Origin: Mobula hypostoma
Taxonomy: Eukaryota
Direction: 5' to 3'
NCBI RefSeq assembly: GCF_963921235.1
Contig: NC_086108.1
Location: forward strand, 80,664,001 to 80,728,000
Length of the DNA: 64,000 nt
Shown here: positions 4,558 through 64,000 of the stretch, piece after piece
How positions within the stretch are numbered: the stretch's first letter is position 1
Layout: each line of letters begins with the position of its first letter
Program-made: the position numbers and the translations under genes
The notes under the pieces: generated by a model
Seen by the model: the letters and a program-made list of their open reading frames with translations, nothing else
Databases searched by the model: none
What the model was told of the DNA's origin: nothing

Positions 4558-5101
4558 TGTCCCAGGATACTGACGGACTTTTACCGCTGTACCATTGAGA
4601 GCATACTCACCAACTGCACCTCAGTGTGGTATGGCAATGGTCCCGTATCAGACCGCAAAGCACTCCAGCGTGTGGTGAAAACTGCCCAGCAGATTATCGG
4701 CACCCAATTGCCCACCATTGAGAACATCTACCATAAACACTGCCTGGGCAGGGCGAAAAGCATTATCAGGGATGCATCTCCCCTAACCATGGACTTTTTA
4801 CTCTCCTCCCATCCGGTAGGTGCTACAGGAGCCTCCATTCCCGCACCAGCAGGCACAGGAAGAGCTTTTTCCCTGAGTCTGCGACCCTGCTGAACCTCAC
4901 ATCACAGCGCTAAGCAGTATTGCATCCATATTGTCTCAGTACTTTTGTATTTGTGTGCTGTAGCACTTTCTTCATTCGCAGTTATTTTGTAAATAACACT
5001 ATTCTTTGCATTTCTGGTCAGATGCTAAATGCATTTCATTGGCTTTGTATCTGTACTCGGCACAATGACAATAAAGTTGGAACTGATCTAATCAAATCTA
5101 A
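4558..5101 (+). mobile_element. 5'-truncated Rex1/Babar-type LINE inserted in the Tc1 transposase
   Basis: FYRCTIESILT..WYGN..LQRVVKTAQ C-terminus, AATAAA and (AATCT)n tail; TCATTATC duplicated at 4550-4557 and 5102-5109. Confidence 0.88.
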
Positions 5102-5789
5102 TCATTATCCTGCTGTAGAATGAATTTGGGACTGATCAGACGCCTCCCTGATGGTTTTGCATGATGGATGAGAACCTGCTTGCACTTCGCAGCACTGAGG
5201 ATTCCATTAATTCTGATCAGATCACCAACTCCATTTTTAGAAATGCAGCCCCGAACCTGCAGGGAACCTCTGTCATGTTTCACTGTTAGTAGCAGACACT
5301 CATCCATGTAGTGCTCACAGACAAACTGCCTCCTGTTTGAGCCAGAAATTCCTAATTTTGGCTTGTCGGTCCAGAGCACATGCCGCCATTGTTCTGCATC
5401 CCAGTCCTTGGGTTTTTGTGTGCAGGTCAGTCTCTTGGCTTTGATTCCATTTCAGAGGAATGACTCTTCCATGAAGACCACTTCTGAGAAGACTTTTCTA
5501 GACCGCAGAGGGGTGTACTTGGGTTCCAGTGGTTTCTGTGAGTTCAGAGCTGACAGCAGTGGTGAACTTCTTCCAATTTAGAAGGGGCATCAGTTTGATG
5601 CATCTTCCATCTGATGCACTCAGTTTCCATGGCCGACCACTGTGTTTCTGGTCCTCGACCTGACCTGTTTCTTTGTGCTTCTTCAAAAGAACTCCTACAG
5701 CACAACTTGAAACTCCTGTCTGCTGCAAAACTTCTGCTTGGGAGAGACCTAACAGATGGAGGATGACACCCTGTGTCTTGTTGCTATGC

Positions 5790-6224
5790 CCATGGAAAAA
5801 GCGACGCAACAGACTTTTAACACCATAAATCAGCGAGTTGTTTTGCTATGTCTCCCCTCTTGCTGTGAAATGGGAACGCCTCTTTTTCCCTTATTAGGAT
5901 AGGAAGAGAGACAGCCTGTGTTATGTCAAATACCGGGTGAACGACTAGTCGTTGGGGTACTGCAAGTCTGAGTCTTTATTGATGCTTTGCTGCACGCTTG
6001 AGTGCTTGGTGGAGGGTGCTGATGCTTTTTTGCTGGTGGAGGAGTCATTATTTTGCTGCTGCTTGTGCGTGGGAAGGGGAGCTGGGGGGTGGGGTTGGGG
6101 TTCTAACATTTAACTGCCATTCATTCTTTGGGGCACTCCTCTGTTTTCATGGATGTTTGCAAAGAGAAAGAATTTCGGGATGTATGTTGTATAAATTTCC
6201 CTGACATTAAATGTACCTATTGAA
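5790..6224 (+). mobile_element. Non-coding SINE-like insertion within the Tc1 element
   Basis: Interrupts Tc1 just upstream of the transposase start. Its 3' end (gaatttcgggatgtatgttgtata...cattaaatgtacctattgaa) resembles the LINE-type tails at 36790-36870 and 47099-47160. Boundaries approximate. Confidence 0.55.
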
Positions 6225-23494: not shown

Positions 23495-25717
23495 CACGTG
23501 CTAGAAAGTTTGTGAACCCTATAATGTTCTCTTTTTCGGCATAAATATGACATAAAATGTGATCAGATCATTACATGTCCTAAAACTAGATAAAGAGAAC
23601 CCAATTAAATAAATAACACAAAAACATTATACTCGTTCATTTCTTTATTGAGAAAAATGATCCAATATTACACATATTTGTTGGAAAAAAGTATGTGAAC
23701 CTCTAGGATTATCAGTTCATTTAAAGGGGAAATTAGAGTCAGGTATTTCAATCAATAGGATGACAATCAGCTGTGAGTGTGGGAGGCCTTGCCTAATTTA
23801 AAGAAGATAAACCTGGGTCTTCACTATCAAAGTCTGATCTTCAATGCACAGGTTTCCCCTGCACAGGAAGTGTGCCGTGCCTTGATCAAAGGAGATTTCT
23901 GAGGACCTCAGAAAAAAAAAGTCGATGCTCAGCAGGCTGGAAAAGGATGCAAAACCATTCCTAAAGAGTTTGGGCTCCACCAGTCCATAATCAGGCAGAT
24001 GGTGTACAAATGGAGGAAATTCAACTCTGTTGTTACTCTCCTCAGGAGTAGTTGACCGACAAAAATCACTCTGAGAGCAAGGTGTGTAATATTCCACGAG
24101 GTCACAAAGAACCCCAGGGTAACATCCAAGGAGCTAAAGGCCTCTCTTGCATCACTTTTCATGAGTCTACCATCAGGCAAGCACTGAACAATGTGCATGG
24201 CAGGATTGCAAGGAGAAGGCCACTTCTCTCCAACAAGAACATTGCTGCCCATCTAGAGTTTGCTAAAGACTACATGGATAAGCAAGAAGGCTATTGGAAG
24301 AATGTTCTGTGGACATATGAATCCAGAATAGAACTTTTTGGCTTAAAAGAGAAGCGTTTTGTTTGGCGAAAAGCAAACACTGCATTACAGTGTAAGAACC
24401 TCATCCCATCTGTGAAACCTGGTGGTGGCAGCGTCATGGTTTGGGCCTGCTTTGCTGCCTTGGGACCAGGACAGCATGCCATCATTGATTGAACTAGGAA
24501 CTCTAAATTGTACCAGCAACTTCTACAGGACAAAGTCACGGTATCCATCATGAACTGAAACTCAAGAGGAAGTGGGTCATGCAGCAAGACGACAGCCCTA
24601 AACACTCGTCATTCTACCAAAGAATGGTTAAAGCAGAAGAAGTTTCACGTTTTTGAATGGCCAGGTCAAAATCCTGACTTTAATCTTATAGAAATGTTGT
24701 GGAAGGACCTGAAGCAAGCAGTTCATGCAAGGAAGCCCACCAACATCCTAGAGTTGACACAGCTTTGTAAGAATGGCCTAAAATTCCTCCCAGCCAATGT
24801 GCAAGACTGACCAACATTTATCAGAAACATTTGGTTGAAGTTATTGCTGTACAAGGGGGTCACACCAGTTACTGAAAGCAAAGGTTCACATACTACTTCC
24901 AACAAATACATGTGTAGGGTTCTCAGTAATATTAACTGTAATGTTAACTGTTAACTGCTAATTATAAAATGGCTTCTCTGAAGTGTAATAATGAAATGGC
25001 TTCTTTGTAATATTAACTATGAGGTAACATTCTCTGTAGCTGAAATGTTTGGGTTATAGTTATAGATAACGGAGGAACTAACCAATGGAAGCTATGTTAT
25101 TCTATCTGTATGTGCTGGAACCTGGGACAGTGCGCGGGCTTTTCGGGAGGAGAAGCGAAGAGGAAGGACATGCTGGACGCACTCTGGTCGACCACCGTGG
25201 TTGATCCCAGGCGGCAGGTCAAGGAGGTCAGAGGAGATCGAATGGTGGAAAGAAGACCCCGTCAATTGAGCTCCAACGGTTGTGCACAAAGTGGTTGAAC
25301 TCTGATAAGTTTGGTGCCTTTTACTTTCCTTTTATATTGTATCTATTAATTACATAGTTCCAGTAAGATTTATAAAGTGTAATCTGTAAGTCGTACATTG
25401 TGTGCTATCTGATATTTGATGTGTGAGTTTGTACCAGGGTGCATTACACAGCAAATATGCAAACGTGAGACATGGTTTGGCGGGTGGACGGGGATTCCCC
25501 TAGATAAACATGAGCCGATAGCCCTGAGCATTACACATGTATTATTGGATTATTTTTCTCAATAAATAAATGAACAAGTACAATCTTTTTGTGTTATTTA
25601 TTGTGTTCTCTTTACCTAATTTTAGGACTTAGGTGAAGATCTGATCACATTCTAGGTCAGGTCATATTTATGCAGAAAGAGAAAATTCTAAATGTTTCAA
25701 ACTTTCTAGCGCCTCTG
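23495..25717 (+). mobile_element. Tc1-family (DD34E, long IR/DR-type TIR) transposon, full length but inactivated
   Basis: About 200-bp inverted termini starting gtgctagaaagtttgtgaacc. Transposase at about 23877-24875: SKEISEDLR..HGRIARRRP..VLWTYE..QQDDSPKH..DFNLIEMLW, with stops and frameshifts. Confidence 0.92.
24913..25535. mobile_element. Solo LTR inserted in the right TIR of Tc1
   Basis: TGTA...TACA termini; CATG duplicated at 24909-24912 and 25536-25539; removal restores the TIR; non-coding. Confidence 0.8.
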
Positions 25718-28142: not shown

Positions 28143-28722
28143 CAGGTTTCCCCCGCTATCCAAAGGTAGAGAGTTCCTATGAAACCATTCGTAAGCCGAA
28201 ATGGCGTAAAGCGAAGAAGCAGTTACCATTAATTTATATGGGAAAACTTTTTGAGCGTTCCCAGACCCAAAAAGTAACCAACCAAATCATACCAAATTGC
28301 ACATAAAACCTGAAATAACACTAACGTAGTAAAAGCAGGAATGATATGATAAATACACAGCCTATATAAAGTAGAAATAATGTATGTACAGTGTAGTTTC
28401 ACTTAACAGAATCGGGAAGTTTGAGCCAAAATTGATTTGTTGAAAAAAAAATCGGCACATACACGCATGCGCACGTCATGCACTTGCAAGTAGATATACA
28501 TCATGCATGCACACGTACACACATCACGCATGCGCACACACCTGCCTGCGCAAGGCTTCATGGTCATGGTAGTCTTTCTCGGGGTAAACACAAGTTTAAA
28601 GTGAGCGTCCTTTTTCATAAAAGTGAAAATCCTTTTTCAGTTAACGAAAACAGGCACTAATGTAGGTCGTTCGTAAAAGCGAAACGTTGTAAAGAGAACG
28701 TTCGGAAAGCGGGGGACACCTG
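28143..28722. mobile_element. Non-autonomous Tigger/pogo element (Tigger6-like) in Gypsy gag
   Basis: TA|caggtttcccccgct...agcgggggacacctg|TA; removal restores gag L-K-V-Y-S. Family name from recall. Confidence 0.85.
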
Positions 28723-29445: not shown

Positions 29446-29990
29446 ACAACAGGAATTCTGCAGATGCTGGAAATTCAAGCAACATACATCAAAGTTGCTG
29501 GTGAACGCAGCAGGCCAGGCAGCATCTATAGGAAGAGGCGCAGTCGACGTTTCAGGCCGAGACCCTTCGTCAGGACTAACTGAAGGAAGAGTGAGTAAGG
29601 GATTTGAAAGCTGGAGGGGGAGGGGGAGATGCAAAATGATAGAAGACAGGAGGGGGAGGGATGGAGCCGACAGCTGGACAGGTGATAGGCAAAAGGGATA
29701 CGAGAGGATCATGGGACAGGAGGTCCGGGAAGAAAGACGGGGTGGGGGGTGACCCAGAGGATGGGCAAGAGGTATATTCAGAGGGACAGAGGGAGAAAAA
29801 GGAGAGTGAGAGAAAGAATGTGTGCATTAAAAAGAGTAACAGATGGGGTACGAGGGGGAGGTGGGGCCTAGCGGAAGTTAGAGAAGTCGATGTTCATGCC
29901 ATCAGGTTGGAGGCTACCCAGACGGAATATAAGGTGTTGTTCCTCCAACCTGAGTGTGGCTTCATCTTTACAGTAGAGGAGGCCGTGGAT
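29446..29990 (-). mobile_element. Penelope-like element 3' part inserted in Gypsy
   Basis: HGLLYCKDEATLRLEEQHLIFRLGSLQPDGMN on the minus strand; AAGCAA at 29440-29445 and 29991-29996; very similar to 20036-20640. Confidence 0.88.
29542..29577 (-). ncRNA. Minimal type I hammerhead ribozyme motif
   Basis: Minus strand: agtc-CTGACGA-agg-gtctcgg-cct-GAAAC-GTC-gact; perfect 4-bp stem I. Confidence 0.78.
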
Positions 29991-30552
29991 AAGCAATATA
30001 GCTTACATCAGAAGTGAACAGCAAATTAATTAAAATGGAATTGGACACTGGCTCAGCTGTTTCTGTCATTTACAAAATGAGCTTGAATGGCATTTCATAA
30101 GTGCATGCTTCGGTTAAAGAGAAAACTAAGACCAGCATCTCTCATCCCCTTGTTTTACTTTCAATTAGCTTTTATTTTTTTGGAATTATAAAACATACCA
30201 GTAATTGTAGTGCTCTGACTTCTGCCCCGGTATTACCAATCAGGATAGCTTTAGTCAAAATAAGTCTACCATTCAGTCATTCAACTATCGAGGCAACTGA
30301 AATTAAATTGATTACATGCTTGTGCAAACAAGTGCTTCAAGATTCAAGATATCAAAGCTGAAGTGATAATGACATAAAAATCAAAATAATAAATTCAAAT
30401 TTATATCAACAACTTAGATAATCATTCAACAGAAGAATGCAGGGATAAGCATCTACTCTTACTTCCAGGCAATGGACTAATACAAATACGAATTGAAATT
30501 TCTAATTCCTGACAATCAAAGGCAATGCACATCAATAGAAACTGAGACTTAC

Positions 30553-30612
30553 CTGCAATGCTTCACAGGCAGATTCTACCGTAAGTGTGCTGCTGATATA
30601 ATCCACGCACAG
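30553..30612 (-). CDS. BTBD19: Internal coding exon (60 nt, phase 0-0) of a BTB/BACK-domain protein, BTBD19-like
   Basis: Minus strand reads tttatttttcAG|CTGTGCGTGGATTATATCAGCAGCACACTTACGGTAGAATCTGCCTGTGAAGCATTGCAG|GTaagt: strong acceptor and donor, open frame LCVDYISSTLTVESACEALQ. This matches the 20-aa LC...CEALQ segment of human BTBD19 as I recall it (LCLQFVVKVLDVDLVCEALQ). No neighbouring exons found by eye. Confidence 0.8.
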
Positions 30613-30919
30613 CTGAAAAATAAACCTATGGTTAACAGACAAAACATTTGAAGTAAGTGATTTTACAACAGTAAAGTTTCAGCAGCGGAATGTTTTGTTG
30701 GATGGGAGAATCATATACATAAAAGAAGAGTTGCTGAAAGAAGTTTCTGTGTGTGAAATCATGCCTCACAAATTCAAATGAGTTTTTTGAAAAGCTGACC
30801 AACAAGGTGATGAGTAGATATTGTCCACATGGATTTAACAAGGCCTTTGACAAGGCTATGATAGTCTTGTTTGGAAGGTTAGATCACATAGCATAACGTG
30901 AGATTACATAAATCACATG

Positions 30920-31429
30920 TCGGTCCACAGCCTCCTCTTGTGCCAAGATGAGGCCACACTCAAGGTGGAGGCACAACAACTTATATTCTATGTGGGTAGC
31001 CTCCAACCTGACAGCATGAACATTGATTTCTCCTTCCAGTAAATTTTTTTCCCCTGTCCCCCCCCCCTTCTTTTATTCGCCACTCTGGCCCCTTGCGTCT
31101 TCTCACCTGCCTATTACCTCCCCCTGGGTCACCTACTTCCCTTTCTCCAATAGTCTACTCTCCTCTCCTATCAGATTCCTTCTTCTCCAGCCCTTCATCT
31201 TTCCCACCCACCTGGCAATAACTATCACTTTTTAGCTAGCCACCTTCCCCTCCCTCCACCTTTTTTATTCTGGAGTCTTCCCCCTTCCTTTTCAGTCCTC
31301 AGGAAGCATCCCAGCCCAAACATCGTCTGTTTATTCATTTCCATAGATGCTGCCTGACCTCCAGAGTTCCTCCAGCATTTTGTGTGCGTTGCTTTGGGTT
31401 TCCAGCATCTGCAGAATTTCTTGTGTTTA
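30920..31429 (+). mobile_element. Penelope-like element 3' part
   Basis: EATLKVEAQQLIFYVGSLQPDSMN, pLTR with decayed hammerhead near 31295-31330; AGATTACA at 30901-30908 and 31430-31437. Confidence 0.8.
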
Positions 31430-33560: not shown

Positions 33561-34164
33561 GGACGTCATGCTACAGGTGTAAAGGACTTTGGAGTATTGT
33601 GTGCAGCTCTGGTCACCATGTTACAGGAAGGAAGTGATTAAGCCAGAGTGGCTTCAGAAAAAATTCTCATGGATGTTGCTAGGATTGGATAGGCTGTGAC
33701 TGTTTTCCATGGAGTGAAGGGGGCTGAGGAGTGACCTTATGGAGGTGTATAACATCGTGAGAGGCATAGGTAGGGTGAATGATCAGTCTTTTTCCCAGGT
33801 TAGTGGAGTATAAAACTAGAGCATACAAGCTTAAGATGAGAGGGTAAAATTTCAAAAGGGATCTGAGGGGCAAGTTTTATTCCCCACACAGGGAGCAGTG
33901 GGTAGGTGGAACAAAGGAAGTGGTAGAGGCAGAAAAAGACATTTTATTCAGACTCATGGATAGGAAAGGTTTGGAGGGATTCGAGCTAAATGTAGGCAAA
34001 TGGGATTAGCTCAGGTAGGCAGCTTGGTCAGCAAAGATACATCAGGCCAAAAGACTGGTCGCCACGGTATCTCTCTCCCTGCTCCAATCTTATTCCAGGC
34101 TTTGGTATTTTACACAGTGGCCCATACAATTCTAACGAGTTCAACAACTTCTAACCAAGGTAAC

Positions 34165-34512
34165 AAGAACCTTAATGAGTGGCATTGATCGTGTGGATAG
34201 TCAGAGGCTTTTTCCCCAGGGCTGAAATGGTTGCCACAAAAGGACACAGGCTTAAGGTGCTGGGAAGTAGGTACAGAGGAGTTGTCAGGGGTAAGTTTTT
34301 TTACGCAGAGAGTGGCGAGTGCGTGGAATGGGCTGCCCACAACGGTGATGGAGACGGATACGACAGGGTCTTTTAAGAGACTTCTGGATAGGTACATGGA
34401 GCTTAGAAAAATAGAGGGCTATGGGTAAGCCTAGTAATTTCTAAGGTAAGGGACATGTTCGGCACAACTTTGTGGGCCGAAGGGCTGGTATTGTGCTGTA
34501 GGTATTCTATAT
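34165..34512 (+). mobile_element. CR1 3' fragment, same subfamily as 60127-64000
   Basis: FFTQRVASAWNGLP..FKRLLDRYME; shared 3' UTR. Confidence 0.85.
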
Positions 34513-36439
34513 TTCTAAGTAATATATTACAGATATAGAGGGTGGTTAAAAGCTGGAATGCACTGCCTGTGTGGGTGGTGGGGGCAGTTTCTTTCAACAT
34601 TTAATAAGTATTTATTTGAGTAGTTGAATTGCCAAGGCATTGAAGGCTCTGGATCAAGTGCTGGTCAATATCGATATGTTCTTAATTATCTACATGGACG
34701 TAGTGAGCTCAAGGGCTTTGATACTGATAAATATTTTAATACTATTACCTATTTAACAAAAATAATCTTGTAAAAGCTTATAACAGGCCCTTTGGCCTAA
34801 TGCATTTGTGCCAACTAAGCTGTCCACCTGAGCTGGTCCCATTTGCCTGTATTCGGCCTGAATCCCTCTAAACCTTTCCTATAACTCTATCACTAAATAA
34901 ATGTCAGATGTCTTTAAAAAAAAGCAGCAAAAAGCAATAATGCACAAAAAAATCTTAGGACTGACTAACACTGATCTCTAATAGTGATAACTGATTCAGT
35001 AACACTCTGTTCTCAGGGTGGTATCTCTGTAAATCTAGCTAAACAACTGCATCACTTCATCATATAAGTTGCAGAGAAACTAAAGGTAGAGGACTAACAA
35101 GTGTTTGGACGGGCTGTAGAATTTAGTAACTTCATTTTACTCCAACTGTTAATTTCAACTGACAAGCTTTCTCAATAGATATTTGCGTACAATCTCTACA
35201 TATTAAATGTCATTTTACATCACAATTTGAATGAGTAAACATTCCAGATACACACCTAGAGAGCTGCTTTCAATTATCAAATGCTTTGCAGGAGAATTTT
35301 CTTTGGCACAGTTCAGCTATCTACCACAGCATACATAAGATCACTGATAGAATGCATATATCAGATATATCTTTGGTATGTCTGGTAAATACATTTCATC
35401 AGGGATCATTGGAGGAAGTTGCCACATGATTAGTTTGTGCTTGCATCAAGATATGCAACTCTAATCTGCAACCCACCTACCCGATCATAAATGAAAATCA
35501 AATAAAAATTGTTGACGTTGGAAATCTGAAATAAAAATAGCAAAATGATACAAGCACTTTAACTTCCATTCCCACTCCCACTCGGTGACCTCCGGCAAAA
35601 AGACCCAGATTCAGTTTCAAATTTACTTATTACATGTACATCAAAACATAAAGTGAAGTGTGTTGCTTGCAATAACAACCAAAACATCCAAGGATGTACT
35701 GGGTACTATGCCAACATAGCATACCAACAGCTGAACAACAAAACATGAAAACAACAATAACAGAACAAAGCAAGCCTCTTTCCCACCTCTTCATACACAC
35801 AGACAGACCTTCAAGCCCAGGGCAGGCCGCCTCTGCGTCTCCAGTCCTTCAGTCCTTGCCCTGCACTCTCAGATTCACAGACAATGGGCCTTCAACCTCC
35901 AGTCCCTAAGCCGGACTCACTAACTCAACATTAAGGCCTCTACCTCCAGATTTGCCGACTTCGGTCTTTGGCATTTTGAGCTCTATACTTTGACTTCTGG
36001 GTCTGTCCTCTGGACTTCACCCATTTCTGAGGATTGACCCCATGACTTGCCAATCAAGGGTTTGACCCATCACAAGCAAGAATAATAACGCCTCATCTCG
36101 GCACATGACAACCTTTCAGTCTCGTTATCAAATTCTCCAGCGCCAGGCAATTTGTTTTCTCAATCTGTACCAGAACTCCCCATTTCTTTTGTTACCTGTG
36201 ATAATGACTCAGTTTTACTCCTTTAGGTCAGTCTGACCTGTTGGGCATATCCACAGCCCAACACATAACCCAGATAAAGAAGCATAATCACTGTTGAAGT
36301 GTCCCCAGTAACCTATCTGAACAGACAAGACATTCCTATGGCAATCCCTACCTTACCTATTCCCTAAGTCCCATCCATTCCTCCCACCAACTACTCTACA
36401 AGTTAAAATAAACTATTCTGCTCTTTCTTTTAAACACTG

Positions 36440-59865: not shown

Positions 59866-60126
59866 GCTCTTAAAGCCACTCTTTCAAAACCTATCATCTT
59901 ACAGATCTCCATTACCTCACAGCAAAAGAGAAACAAAATTGACTTTACCTTTCATAGCCTCTTTATTACATTTTACGATACGTACAGAACTGTGAACAAT
60001 ATTCTTTCCATGGTCTTACCAAAGTTCAGCAATAACTTCTCCACTGAAGTAAACCCTTCTGCTAGATTTTCTTCCTTTATCTGGACTTGCAACATTTAAG
60101 ACTGATGCAATTGTGCTCTGATATTC

Positions 60127-63100
60127 ATAGAAACTTAGAAAACCTACAGCACACTACAGGCCCTTCGGCCCACAATGTTGTGCCGAACATGTATTTACTT
60201 TAGAAATTACCTCGGGTTACCCATAGCCCTCTATTTCACTAAGCTCCATGTACCTGTCCAAGTGCCTCTTAAAAGACCCTATTGTATTCGCCTCCACCAC
60301 CGTCACCAGCAGCCCATTCCATGCACTCACGAGTCTCTGCATACAATCTTACCCCTGACATCTCCTCTGTACCTACTTCCAAGCACCTTAAAACCATGCC
60401 CTCATGTGTTAGCCACTTCAGTCCTGGGGAAAAGCCTCTGACTATCCACACGATCAAGGCCTCTCATCATCTTATACACCTCTATCAGGTCACCTCTCAT
60501 CTTACGTCACTCCAAGGAGAACAGGCTGAGTTCACTCAACCTATTCATATAAGGCATGCTCCCCAATCCAAGCAACGTTCTTGTAAATCCAGTCGTCACA
60601 CTTTCTATAGCTTCCACATCTTTCCTGTAGTGAGGTGACCAGAACTGAGCATAGTACTCCAGGTGAGGTCTGACCAGGGTCCTATATAACTATAACATTA
60701 CCTCTCGGCTCTTGAACTCAATCCCACGGTTGATGAAGGCCAATACGCTGTATGCCTTCTTAACCACACAGTCAACCTGCGCAGCAACTTTGAGTGCCGG
60801 ATGGACTTGGACCCCAAGATCCCTCTGATCCTCCACACTGCCAAGAGACTTACCATTAATATTATATTCTGCCATCATATTTGACCTACCAAAATGAACC
60901 ACCTCATACTTATCTGGGTTGAACTCCATCTGCCACATCTCAGCCCAGTTTTGCATCCTATCGATGTCCCACTGTAACCTCGGACAGCCCTCCACACTAT
61001 CCACAACACCTCCAACCTTTGAGTCATCAGCAAATTTACTAACCCATCTCTCCACTTCCTCAACCAGGTCATTTATAAAAATCACAAAGAACAGGGGTCC
61101 CAGAACAGTTTCCTGAGGCACATCACTGGTCACCAACCTCCATGCAGAATATGACCCATCTACAAACACTTCTTGCCTTCTGTATGCAAGCCAGTTCCGG
61201 ATCCACAAAGCAATGTCCCCTTGGATCCCATGCCTCCTTAATTTCTCAATAAGCCTTACATGGCCTTATCCATATGCTGAAATCCACATACAGTCAGCCC
61301 TCCGTACCCACGGATACCAAATTCTGCGGATGCTCAAGTCTGGTATATAAAATGGTGTAGTATTTGTATATAACCCACACACATCCTCCCGTATACTTTA
61401 AATCATCGCTAGATTTCTTATAATACCTAAAACAACGTAAATGCTATGTAAATCGTTGTTATACTGTATTGTTTAGGGAATAATGACAAGAAAAAAAGTC
61501 TGTACATGTTCAGCACAGACCCAACCATCGTAGCTCTTCTGGGAACGCTGGTTCAGCCAATGCCGATTCTCCCGTGATCTTTAAGTTCTTGAGGCTGTAG
61601 CGCTTTACCTAGCTAGCCAGCCATCCCTTACTAACCTTAAACTCCTTCCTCTCGCTCATAACACAAGTAGCGAACAAACGAGACGCGAGACGGACAATGC
61701 TCAAACAATGAGTAATACTTTTAATCATCTCTAGATTACAGTACTTTACACTCCCTCTTAGACTTTGAGGAATTGCTTTGACCACTTAATTGCTTTTTAG
61801 GAGCCATTTTTTAACAGAAACAAAGGGTGCACACAACACAAGTAGCAACCGAACGAGTGCTGGACAGAGAACTTCCGGGGGTTTTTTTTTTCGATCCCGA
61901 TCCGTGGTTGGTTGAATTCGCGGATGCGGAACCTACGGATACGAAGGGCCGACTGTACACTACATCTTCTGCGCTACCTTCACCAATATGTTTAGTCACA
62001 TCCTCAAAAAATTTAATCAGGCTCATGAGGCACGACCTGCCTTTGACAAAGCCATGCTGAATATTCCTAATCATATTATGCCTCTCCAATTGTTCATAAA
62101 TCCTGCCTCTCAGGATCTTCTCCATCAACTTACCAACCACTGAAGTAAGACTCACTGGTCGATAATTTACTGGGCTCTTTCTACTTCTTTCCTTAAATAA
62201 GGGAACAACATCCACAACCCTCCAATCCTCCGGAACTTCTCCTGTCCATATTGATGATGTAAAGATCATTGCCAGAGGCTCAGCAATCTCTTCTCTCGCC
62301 TACCACAGTAGCCTGGGGTACATCTCATCTAGTTCCGGTGACACATCCAACTTGATGCTTTCCAAAAGCTCCAGCACATCCTCTTTCTTAATGTCTATAT
62401 GCTCAAGCTTTTCAGTCCGCTGTACATCATCTCTACAATCGCCAAGGTCCTTTTCCGTAGTGAATACTGAAGCAAAGTATTCATTAAATACCTCCACTAC
62501 CTCCTCCGGTTCCATACACACTTTTCCCACTGTCACACTTGATTGGTCCTGTTCTCTCACATCTTCTCCTTTTGCTCTTCACATACTTGTAGAATGCTTT
62601 GGGGTTTTCCTTAATCCTGCTCGCCAAGACCTTCTCATGTCTCCTTCTGGCTCTCCTAATTTCATTCTTAAGTTCCTTCCTGCTAGCCTTATAATTTTCT
62701 AGATCTCTATCATTACTTAGTTTTTTGAACCTTTCGTAAGCTTTTCTTTTCTTCTTGACGAGATTTACAACAGCCTTTGTACTCCACGGTTCCTGTACCC
62801 TACCATCCTTTCCCTGTCTCACTGGAACGTACATGTGCAGAATGCCATGCAAGTATCCCCTGAAGATTTGCCACATTTCTGCCATACACTTCCCCTGAGA
62901 ACTTCTGTTCCCAATTTATGCTTCTAAGTTCCTGCTTGATAGCTTCATATTTCCCCTTACTCCAAGTAAACGCTTTGCTAACTTGTTTGTTCCTATCCCT
63001 CTCCAATGTTACGGTAAAGGAGATTGAATTATAATCACTATCTCCTAAATGCTCTCCCACTGAGAGACCTGACACCTGACCAGTTTCATTTCCCAATACC

Positions 63101-64000
63101 AGATCAAGTACAGCCTCTCCTCTTATAGGTTTATCTACATACTGTGTCAGGAAACCTTCCTGAACACACCTAACAAACTCCACCCCATCTAAACCCCTTG
63201 CTCTAGGGAGACGCCAATCAATATTGGGGAAATTCAAATCCCCCATCACGACAACCCTGCTATTACTGCACCGTTCCAGAATCTGTCTCCCTATCTGCTC
63301 CTCAATGTCCCTGTTACTATTGGGTGGTCTATAAAAACTCCCAGTAGAGTTATTGACCTCTTCCTGTTTGTAACTTACACCCACAGAGATTCAGTAGACA
63401 ATCCCTCCATGACTTCCTCCTTTTCTGCAGCTGTGACACTATCTCTGATCAACAGTGCCATGCCCCACCTCCCTCCCTGTCCTGTCCTTTCTGAAACATC
63501 TAAAGCCTGGCACTCTAAGTAGCCATTCCTGCCCCTGAGCCATCCAAATCTCTGTAATGGCCACAACATCATAGCTCCATGATCCACTCTCTAAGCTCAT
63601 TCGCTTTGTTCACGATGCTTCTTGCATTAAAACAGACACATCTCAAGCCAGCAGTCTGAGCTCATCCCTTCTCTATCACCTGCCTAACCTCCCTCTCACA
63701 CTGCCTACAAGCTTTCTCTATTTGTGAACCAACAGCCCCTTCCTCCGACTCTTCAGTTCGGTTCCCACCCCCCAGCTATTCTAGTTGAAACTCTTCCCAA
63801 TAGCCTTAGCAAACCTCCCTGCCAGGATATTGGTCCCCCTCGGATTTAAGTGCATACCGTCCTTTTTGTACAGGTCACGCCTGCCCCAAAAGAGGTCCCA
63901 ATGATCCAGAAATCTGAATCCCTGCCCCCCGCTTCAATCCCTCAGCCACGCATTTATCCTCCATCTCACCCTATTCCTATACTCACTGTCGCGTGGCACA
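60127..64000 (-). mobile_element. Long CR1 LINE: ORF1 C-terminus plus decayed ORF2, runs off window edge
   Basis: ORF1 end at 63781-64000 (RINAWL..FRFLDHW..KDGMHLN, SGNH esterase type); ORF2 start CFNARSIVNK near 63640; YRPPNS; FADD in 60690-61208. Confidence 0.95.
61291..61955. mobile_element. Non-autonomous Tigger element (MER2-like) inserted in CR1 RT
   Basis: TA|cagtcagccctccgta...tacgaagggccgactg|TA; removal restores CR1 EDVVYVDF. Confidence 0.9.

What the first reader, a model, noticed from the sequence alone, without database searches (positions are those of the whole stretch)
61291..61955. Tigger MITE closely resembling mammalian MER2 in a cartilaginous-fish genome
Seen: TA-flanked TIR element. 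Recalled: the non-coding block 61311-61530 (cggataccaa..gctcaagtc..tttaaatcatc..gtttagggaataatgacaagaaaaaaagtctgtacatgttcag) and the right end (gatccgtggttggttgaattcgcggatgcggaacc..gggccgactg) read almost like the eutherian MER2 consensus. Inference: such non-coding similarity is hard to explain by vertical descent and suggests horizontal transfer. The extra middle (about 61530-61880) may come from a longer parent element.
Basis: partly seen in the sequence, partly recalled or inferred. Interest (0 to 1): 0.72.

Follow-up and report, generated by a model that had tools for sequence, protein, structure and literature searches.

The report
Rearranged Tigger transposon copy in ray
A dead, shortened and reshuffled cut-and-paste jumping gene sits inside an older repeat of what is likely a ray genome; its enzyme scraps group with those of a skink and whipworms, so the family likely jumped between distant animals, but its proposed match to the human repeat MER2 is only recalled and was not measured.

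Summary
The element is real: 665 bp, TA on both sides, inverted ends matching at 16/19, inserted into a CR1 reverse-transcriptase frame. It is not a plain MITE. Other diverged copies with the same joints occur in all 4 runs laid, from 4 coded organisms. The scraps match a Mobula protein (21/23) and intact unnamed DD32D Tigger/pogo transposases. These group with skink and Trichuris proteins (98/98), not with the named mammalian Tigger proteins. That supports horizontal movement of the lineage, though paralogy is not excluded. The headline MER2 likeness was not computed, because no tool supplied a MER2 sequence; my recall agrees with it. Tigger transfer between placental mammals and sharks is already reported at family level (PMC9219625), for elements with other ends. 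The scan has noted this family many times in this genome and in arthropods (21 notes). Verdict: new member of a known kind, useful as a lead to MER2's likely parent.

The parts
61289..61290 (.). TA target-site duplication, left
61291..61309 (-). Terminal inverted repeat at the parent's 3' end (16/19 to the other end)
61310..61521 (-). Non-coding 3' arm of the parent; MER2-like by recall only, likeness not computed
   Evidence: no transposase hit here
61522..61656 (-). Transposase scrap 2, codons about 131-179 (end of the HTH_Tnp_Tc5 domain); one stop and a gap of about 4 codons
   Evidence: 36/49 to P0186, E 2e-13; 34/45 to P0001
61658..61713 (-). Second copy of part of the parent's 5' non-coding leader
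   Evidence: D1, 83% over 29; tables 5 and 7: family contigs link this piece to the start-codon region
61714..61742 (-). Joint piece, a short second copy of a stretch of the 3' arm (61393-61415 matches 61715-61737 at 21/23)
   Evidence: family contigs leave the window sequence at 61713 and 61743 (table 7)
61739..61807 (-). Transposase scrap 1, start codon and codons 1-23
   Evidence: 21/23 to Mobula P0001; 20/23 to P0186, 19/23 to P0007
61808..61936 (-). 5' non-coding leader of the parent; its outer part is MER2-like by recall only
61937..61955 (-). Terminal inverted repeat at the parent's 5' end
61956..61957 (.). TA target-site duplication, right
60121..63390 (-). Host element: decayed CR1-type LINE ORF2, split by the insertion (CR1 label recalled; RVT_1 tested; outer limits approximate)
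   Evidence: (RVT_1 hits on both flanks, E 1e-8 and 1.4e-5)

Best explanation
This is a dead, internally deleted and reshuffled copy of a Tigger/pogo DNA transposon, inserted at a TA in an older LINE, and its parent lineage likely entered rays by horizontal transfer and is probably the same lineage that left MER2 in placental mammals. Shown: TA duplication, inverted ends, two transposase scraps, loss of all three catalytic aspartates, and other diverged copies with the same joints in four organisms. Inferred: the mosaic arose from a full-length parent (about 610 codons, DD32D) by abortive gap repair with template switches, which would explain why pieces of its own arms sit at the deletion joints. 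The derivative was then spread in trans by the parent's transposase, which binds the ends through its CENP-B-type helix-turn-helix domains and cuts and pastes into TA. Inferred, weaker: the parent moved between rays, a lizard and whipworms. Recalled, untested: the non-coding arms are MER2-like, which would add placental mammals as another, separately invaded host.
For: Anatomy and empty site. Scraps: 21/23 to Mobula P0001, 36/49 to P0186. Intact relatives P0007 and P0186, 607 and 611 aa, D194-D308-D341. Middle laid on 4 of 23 listed runs: 609, 536, 365 and 125 contigs; listed contigs with 7-14 other letters bridge the joint at 61657 in all 4 runs, the one at 61713 in 3 and the one at 61743 in 1 (table 8, which shows 32 of 1649 pieces). 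The window copy differs from the majority letter at 11 of 276 places in each run. Tree: ray lineage + skink P0073 + four Trichuris rows form one clade at 98/98 (19 rows); same grouping. Identity to P0007: skink 75%, Trichuris 64-68% for the six rows in that clade that cover the catalytic region, elephant 65%, dugong 61%, coelacanth 52%. [quoted passage not shown] MER2 is 345 bp, 8,377 human entries, median divergence 18.5%, active around the placental radiation (PMC1914374, passages and supplement rows).
Against: The MER2 match was not computed. No named mammalian protein lies in the ray clade; elephant, dugong and opossum proteins form part of the sister clade, and holding rays with elephant and dugong is rejected (p-AU 2e-5). 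Transposon trees also clash with host trees through old paralogy and loss, so the AU rejections do not prove transfer; rows and groups were chosen after seeing the first tree. Elephant (65%) is about as close to P0007 as the whipworm proteins are. No DNA of a parent was obtained, so there is no synonymous-site test and no host-gene control. P0007 and P0186 are unnamed; they are tied to rays only by likeness to Mobula and Hemitrygon. The copy cannot be dated: the shark rate found is per generation.
Confidence: 0.72

Rival explanations
1. The lineage did move horizontally among rays, lizards and worms, but it is only a cousin of MER2; the likeness is limited to the ends and recall overstates it.
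For: No MER2 sequence was compared. Named mammalian relatives are in the sister clade. Tigger ends are alike across families (PMC9219625 Table S1, part read).
Against: The non-coding arms are of the right order of size for a 345-bp element. Distant Tiggers share no DNA likeness with the window: 0 hits in 77 loci, so long non-coding likeness, if real, is not generic.
Confidence: 0.14
2. Vertical descent: an old Tigger lineage was present in early jawed vertebrates or earlier, persisted, and was lost patchily; slow shark evolution keeps it looking young.
For: Sharks mutate slowly, 7e-10 per base per generation (PMC10587355, passages). 75% protein identity between ray-type and skink proteins is not clearly above ordinary orthologues (my knowledge; not tested).
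Against: Nematode proteins nest with the ray-skink group to the exclusion of other vertebrate Tiggers (98/98; p-AU 1e-13). Human MER2 amplified near the placental radiation. Neutral evolution of DNA transposons within hosts (PMC7070016) makes long vertical survival with conserved non-coding arms unlikely.
Confidence: 0.1
3. Contamination or mis-assembly: mammalian DNA in a fish assembly.
For: Only the recalled likeness to a human repeat.
Against: Clean TA-duplicating insertion in a native LINE; scraps closest to Mobula and Hemitrygon proteins; hundreds of diverged contigs in 4 of 4 runs.
Confidence: 0.01

Closest known systems
MER2 (345 bp) and MER2B (336 bp), human non-autonomous Mariner-class repeats (Repbase list, PMC5753468; RepeatMasker family MER2_type, PMC1914374 supplements)
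   Same: Non-autonomous, pogo/Tigger type; arms recalled as alike (not computed); earlier unchecked notes report 330-345 bp forms of the family in this genome.
   Different: This copy is 665 bp, keeps about 70 codons of transposase and duplicated arm pieces, and lies in a likely ray genome. No autonomous partner of MER2 is named in the passages read.
Tigger family of pogo transposons (Diaby et al. 2022, PMC9219625), including five chondrichthyan elements and transfers inferred between Eutheria and two sharks
   Same: TA duplication, short inverted ends, CENP-B-type HTH domains plus DDE_1, DD32D inside the stated DD29-36D range; patchy spread.
   Different: None of the five chondrichthyan entries has these ends; the terminal motif and the protein start were not found in the supplement. 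Trichuris and Tiliqua are absent from it. 'Tigger' is polyphyletic according to PMC7325037.
TIGD1-like protein of Tiliqua scincoides (P0073) and Trichuris suis/muris HTH-CENPB/DDE-1 proteins (P0057, P0190, P0104)
   Same: Same clade as the ray parent (98/98); 75% and 64-68% identity to P0007.
   Different: Proteins only; whether their DNA ends match the ray element or MER2 was not seen.

Membership tests
pogo/Tigger DNA transposons | TA target-site duplication | tested here: met
   empty site restores the LINE frame
pogo/Tigger DNA transposons | Short terminal inverted repeats (about 20 bp; 8-33 in PMC9219625) | tested here: met
   16/19, chance 0.05 per 64 kb
pogo/Tigger DNA transposons | Transposase with CENP-B-type HTH domains and a DD29-36D catalytic triad | tested here: met
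   Met by the inferred parent P0007 (PF04218, PF03221, PF03184; DD32D). The window copy keeps only HTH-region scraps.
MITE (strict sense) | No coding capacity or transposase remnant | tested here: not met
   Two transposase scraps; better called a non-autonomous deletion derivative
MITE (strict sense) | Amplified as many copies of one structure | tested here: inconclusive
   Diverged contigs bridge the same joints in several runs, but no listed piece spans the whole middle and contig counts are not copy numbers
MER2/MER2B | High DNA identity to the MER2 or MER2B consensus along the non-coding arms | not testable with these tools
   No MER2 sequence came from any call; recall only
MER2/MER2B | Length of 345 or 336 bp without transposase sequence | tested here: not met
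   665 bp with coding scraps; at most a longer relative
Horizontally transferred transposon | Element tree incongruent with host tree | tested here: met
   protein tree only, paralogy not excluded
Horizontally transferred transposon | Element divergence below host-gene synonymous divergence | not testable with these tools
   No parent DNA and no host orthologues obtained
Horizontally transferred transposon | Patchy taxonomic distribution | tested here: inconclusive
   Named members of the clade: two rays, one skink, two whipworms. Protein databases miss dead elements, and run organisms are coded.

The most novel reading that the evidence does not exclude
The DD32D transposase represented by P0007/P0186 is the lost autonomous parent of MER2, one of the common DNA-transposon fossils of the human genome. 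One near-identical element invaded rays and early placental mammals within a short span, with gut-dwelling whipworm lineages in the transfer network. Manta/devil rays also spliced its DNA-binding domain onto a GTF2IRD2-like gene. An intact natural enzyme would make MER2 mobilisation directly testable.
Probability: 0.45. Interest if true: 0.55.

Novelty: new member of a known kind. Interest (0 to 1): 0.33.

Why it matters
Transfers that involve mammals are rare: 24 of 975 events involved mammals or birds in PMC7070016. A ray-mammal case resting on non-coding identity would be a clean addition, and the coding scraps kept in rays would name the enzyme behind thousands of human MER2 copies. The kind of event is known, including Tigger between sharks and placentals (PMC9219625), and this copy is one of many already noted by the scan, so it adds anatomy and a parent candidate rather than a new phenomenon.

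Tried and rejected
No genome held, so no genome-wide consensus or copy count. No second copy of the element in the window. The 23-aa scrap alone found nothing in Pfam or PDB. Parent DNA not found: metagenome scan gave 77 distant loci (best full-length matches 32-44% protein identity) with no DNA match to the window at E<=0.01; viral contigs 0 of 21 candidates; prokaryote genome contigs 0 of 160. Rfam on 61530-61960: 0 matches. Ages printed (21-66 My) are rejected: they used assumed per-year rates, and the shark figure is per generation. The careful mixture-model tree and its AU test did not finish; the AU values come from a 19-row LG+G4 tree. Pace and Feschotte 2007 is not held. Paper searches for a printed link of MER2 to sharks or rays found none: MER2+Tigger+horizontal transfer, 1 paper; Tigger+horizontal+shark+transposon, 5; terminal motif+transposon, 1 unrelated; MER2+eutherian+age, 2; MER2B+MER2, 1; Trichuris+transposon terms, 15 of 124 listed. 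Repbase, Dfam and subscription journals were not searched, so an entry may exist there. Earlier-note searches by relatives, by P0007 and for the GTF2IRD2 fusion returned nothing.

Full report
1. Observation. The stretch 61291-61955 (665 bp) has TA directly outside both ends, and its first 19 bases match the reverse complement of its last 19 at 16 places. A scan for TA-flanked inverted ends of at least 16/19 within 100-1500 bp found 4 in the window and 2 in 40 Markov sequences of the same length. Both flanks encode reverse transcriptase (Pfam RVT_1, E 1e-8 and 1.4e-5). With the element and one TA removed, the frame runs on and matches another LINE copy in the window, 71.6% over 405 bases. So this is a true cut-and-paste insertion into a LINE (CR1 type by recall). 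There is no second copy in the window, and no whole genome is held.

2. The middle is parent sequence. Earlier notes on this genome mentioned transposase fragments in copies of similar length, which sent me back to the six-frame reading. The minus strand has a start codon at 61807 and 23 codons, MAPKKQLSGQSNSSKSKRECKVL. A protein search with this region returned 1 hit among 2 candidates, a Mobula RefSeq model P0001, 21/23 identical at its N-terminus, where Pfam finds CENP-B_N and HTH_Tnp_Tc5. Searching with that part gave 66 proteins, led by the unnamed full-length transposase P0007 (607 aa, 89%) and a Hemitrygon fragment (84%); P0007's cluster also holds P0186 (611 aa). tblastn of P0186 against the window shows a second scrap, codons 131-179 at 61656-61522 (36/49, E 2e-13, one stop and a short gap). 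P0007 has aspartates at 194, 308 and 341, a DD32D triad, within the DD29-36D range given for Tigger (PMC9219625, first 3 of 7 parts read). The window copy lacks codons 24-130 and everything after about 180, so it cannot move itself.

3. Anatomy, in the parent's direction: 5' end, leader, codons 1-23, a 29-base piece that repeats part of the 3' arm (21/23), a 56-base second copy of the leader, codons 131-179, 3' arm, 3' end. I laid the middle (61530-61880) on 4 of the 23 runs listed, from four coded organisms and four studies: 609, 536, 365 and 125 contigs lay on it. Loose ends leave the window sequence at 61657, 61713 and 61743, and read by eye those at 61657 and 61743 continue the transposase frame as in P0001, so longer forms exist. 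Among the 32 pieces shown of 1649, contigs with 7-14 other letters also bridge these joints (61657 in all 4 runs, 61713 in 3, 61743 in 1), so the mosaic is not unique to this copy and likely spread as a subfamily. No listed piece spans the whole middle. The window copy differs from the majority letter at 11 of 276 places in each run, indels not counted (from 12 candidate places); most minority variants are C>T or G>A at CpG. Deletion with copies of the element's own arms at the joints fits abortive gap repair with template switching, known from cut-and-paste elements (my knowledge; inferred here). Whether the arms occur in the same runs was not measured.

4. Relatives and transfer. P0007 found 520 proteins at E<=1e-60, 120 listed. 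Closest named: skink Tiliqua 75%, Trichuris 64-68% for most rows, elephant 65%, opossum 61%, dugong 61%, lizards and turtles 55-60%, coelacanth 52%. I chose 61 of 192 proteins, dropped 6 doubled or gappy rows and built a 55-row quick tree, a 29-row quick mixture tree (careful run unfinished) and a 19-row careful tree. All place rays, P0007/P0186, the skink and Trichuris in one clade (99; 97; 98/98), with elephant, dugong, opossum and two lizards in the sister clade. AU tests reject a vertebrate-only grouping (p 1e-13), rays with elephant and dugong (2e-5) and skink with the other two lizards (1e-11). These groups were named after I had seen the first tree, and old paralogy gives the same pattern, so this is moderate support. 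It gains weight from the finding that DNA transposons evolve neutrally inside a host and are conserved only through transfer (PMC7070016, abstract and passages). It says nothing direct about mammals: no named mammalian protein is in the ray clade. That is expected if MER2's parent left no annotated protein, but it is not support.

5. MER2. From papers: MER2 and MER2B are Mariner-class human repeats (PMC5753468, passages), 345 and 336 bp, with 8,377 and 2,224 human entries at median divergence 18.5% and 19.2%, and MER2 was active around the split of placental orders (PMC1914374, passages and supplement rows). No call supplied their sequence, so the likeness is unmeasured. As a control, 77 loci of distant Tiggers show no DNA match to the window, so long non-coding likeness would not be generic. 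Earlier agent notes report about 95% for the ends and short forms in this genome and in arthropods; they are unchecked and I do not count them as evidence. The copy cannot be dated here because the measured shark rate is per generation (PMC10587355, passages).

6. What is known. Diaby et al. infer Tigger transfers between Eutheria and two sharks. Their five chondrichthyan elements have other ends, and this family's terminal motif and protein start were not found in their supplement (part 5 of 137 read, rest searched). Dupeyron et al. note that 'Tigger' is polyphyletic (PMC7325037, passages). PMC3525145 and PMC6887750 (passages) do not treat MER2. My searches found no paper linking MER2 to rays or naming its parent; Repbase, Dfam and subscription journals lay outside them, and bioRxiv supplements were closed.

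7. Verdict. A real, dead Tigger derivative whose parent enzyme can be named and whose lineage likely moved between distant animals (0.72 for the whole reading, including the MER2 link). It works like any non-autonomous pogo element; it is not MER2 itself (length and content differ) but probably a longer relative. New member of a known kind, seen many times by this scan. Interest 0.33; 0.55 if the MER2-parent link is confirmed by one alignment.

Noticed in passing
P0001-P0005 (RefSeq XP_062887396.1 named Mobula, and XP_0720993xx from a second assembly): Predicted GTF2IRD2-like proteins begin with this family's DNA-binding region (CENP-B_N + HTH_Tnp_Tc5, about 185 aa, open frame) in two assemblies; 95% identical between them in the Tigger part, 98.5% in the rest; one of 6 isoforms lacks it. 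Possible exonisation of the transposase domain; predicted models only.
   Followed up: partly
P0008, P0073 (Tiliqua), P0077 (Loxodonta), P0093/P0094 (lacertids), P0019-P0021 (Equus): Related Tigger domains recur in predicted fusions with host domains (SCAN PF02023, KRAB PF01352, nucleoside diphosphate kinase PF00334).
   Followed up: no
window 28143-28722: A second TA-flanked element of 580 bp with 17/19 inverted ends starting CAGG, likely another non-autonomous Tigger-type family.
   Followed up: no
window 33963-34879 and 29930-30983: Two more TA-flanked inverted pairs (18/19, 16/19); probably opposite-facing fragments of dispersed repeats.
   Followed up: no
window 5101-5845 (-) and 23932-24608: Decayed frames that read like Tc1-type transposases (recalled; the one frame scanned, 5101-5451, gave no Pfam hit).
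   Followed up: no
window 61562: A G>C variant is a minority in run X1 (8%) but 41-70% in the other three runs, hinting at different subfamily mixes among the four organisms.
   Followed up: no
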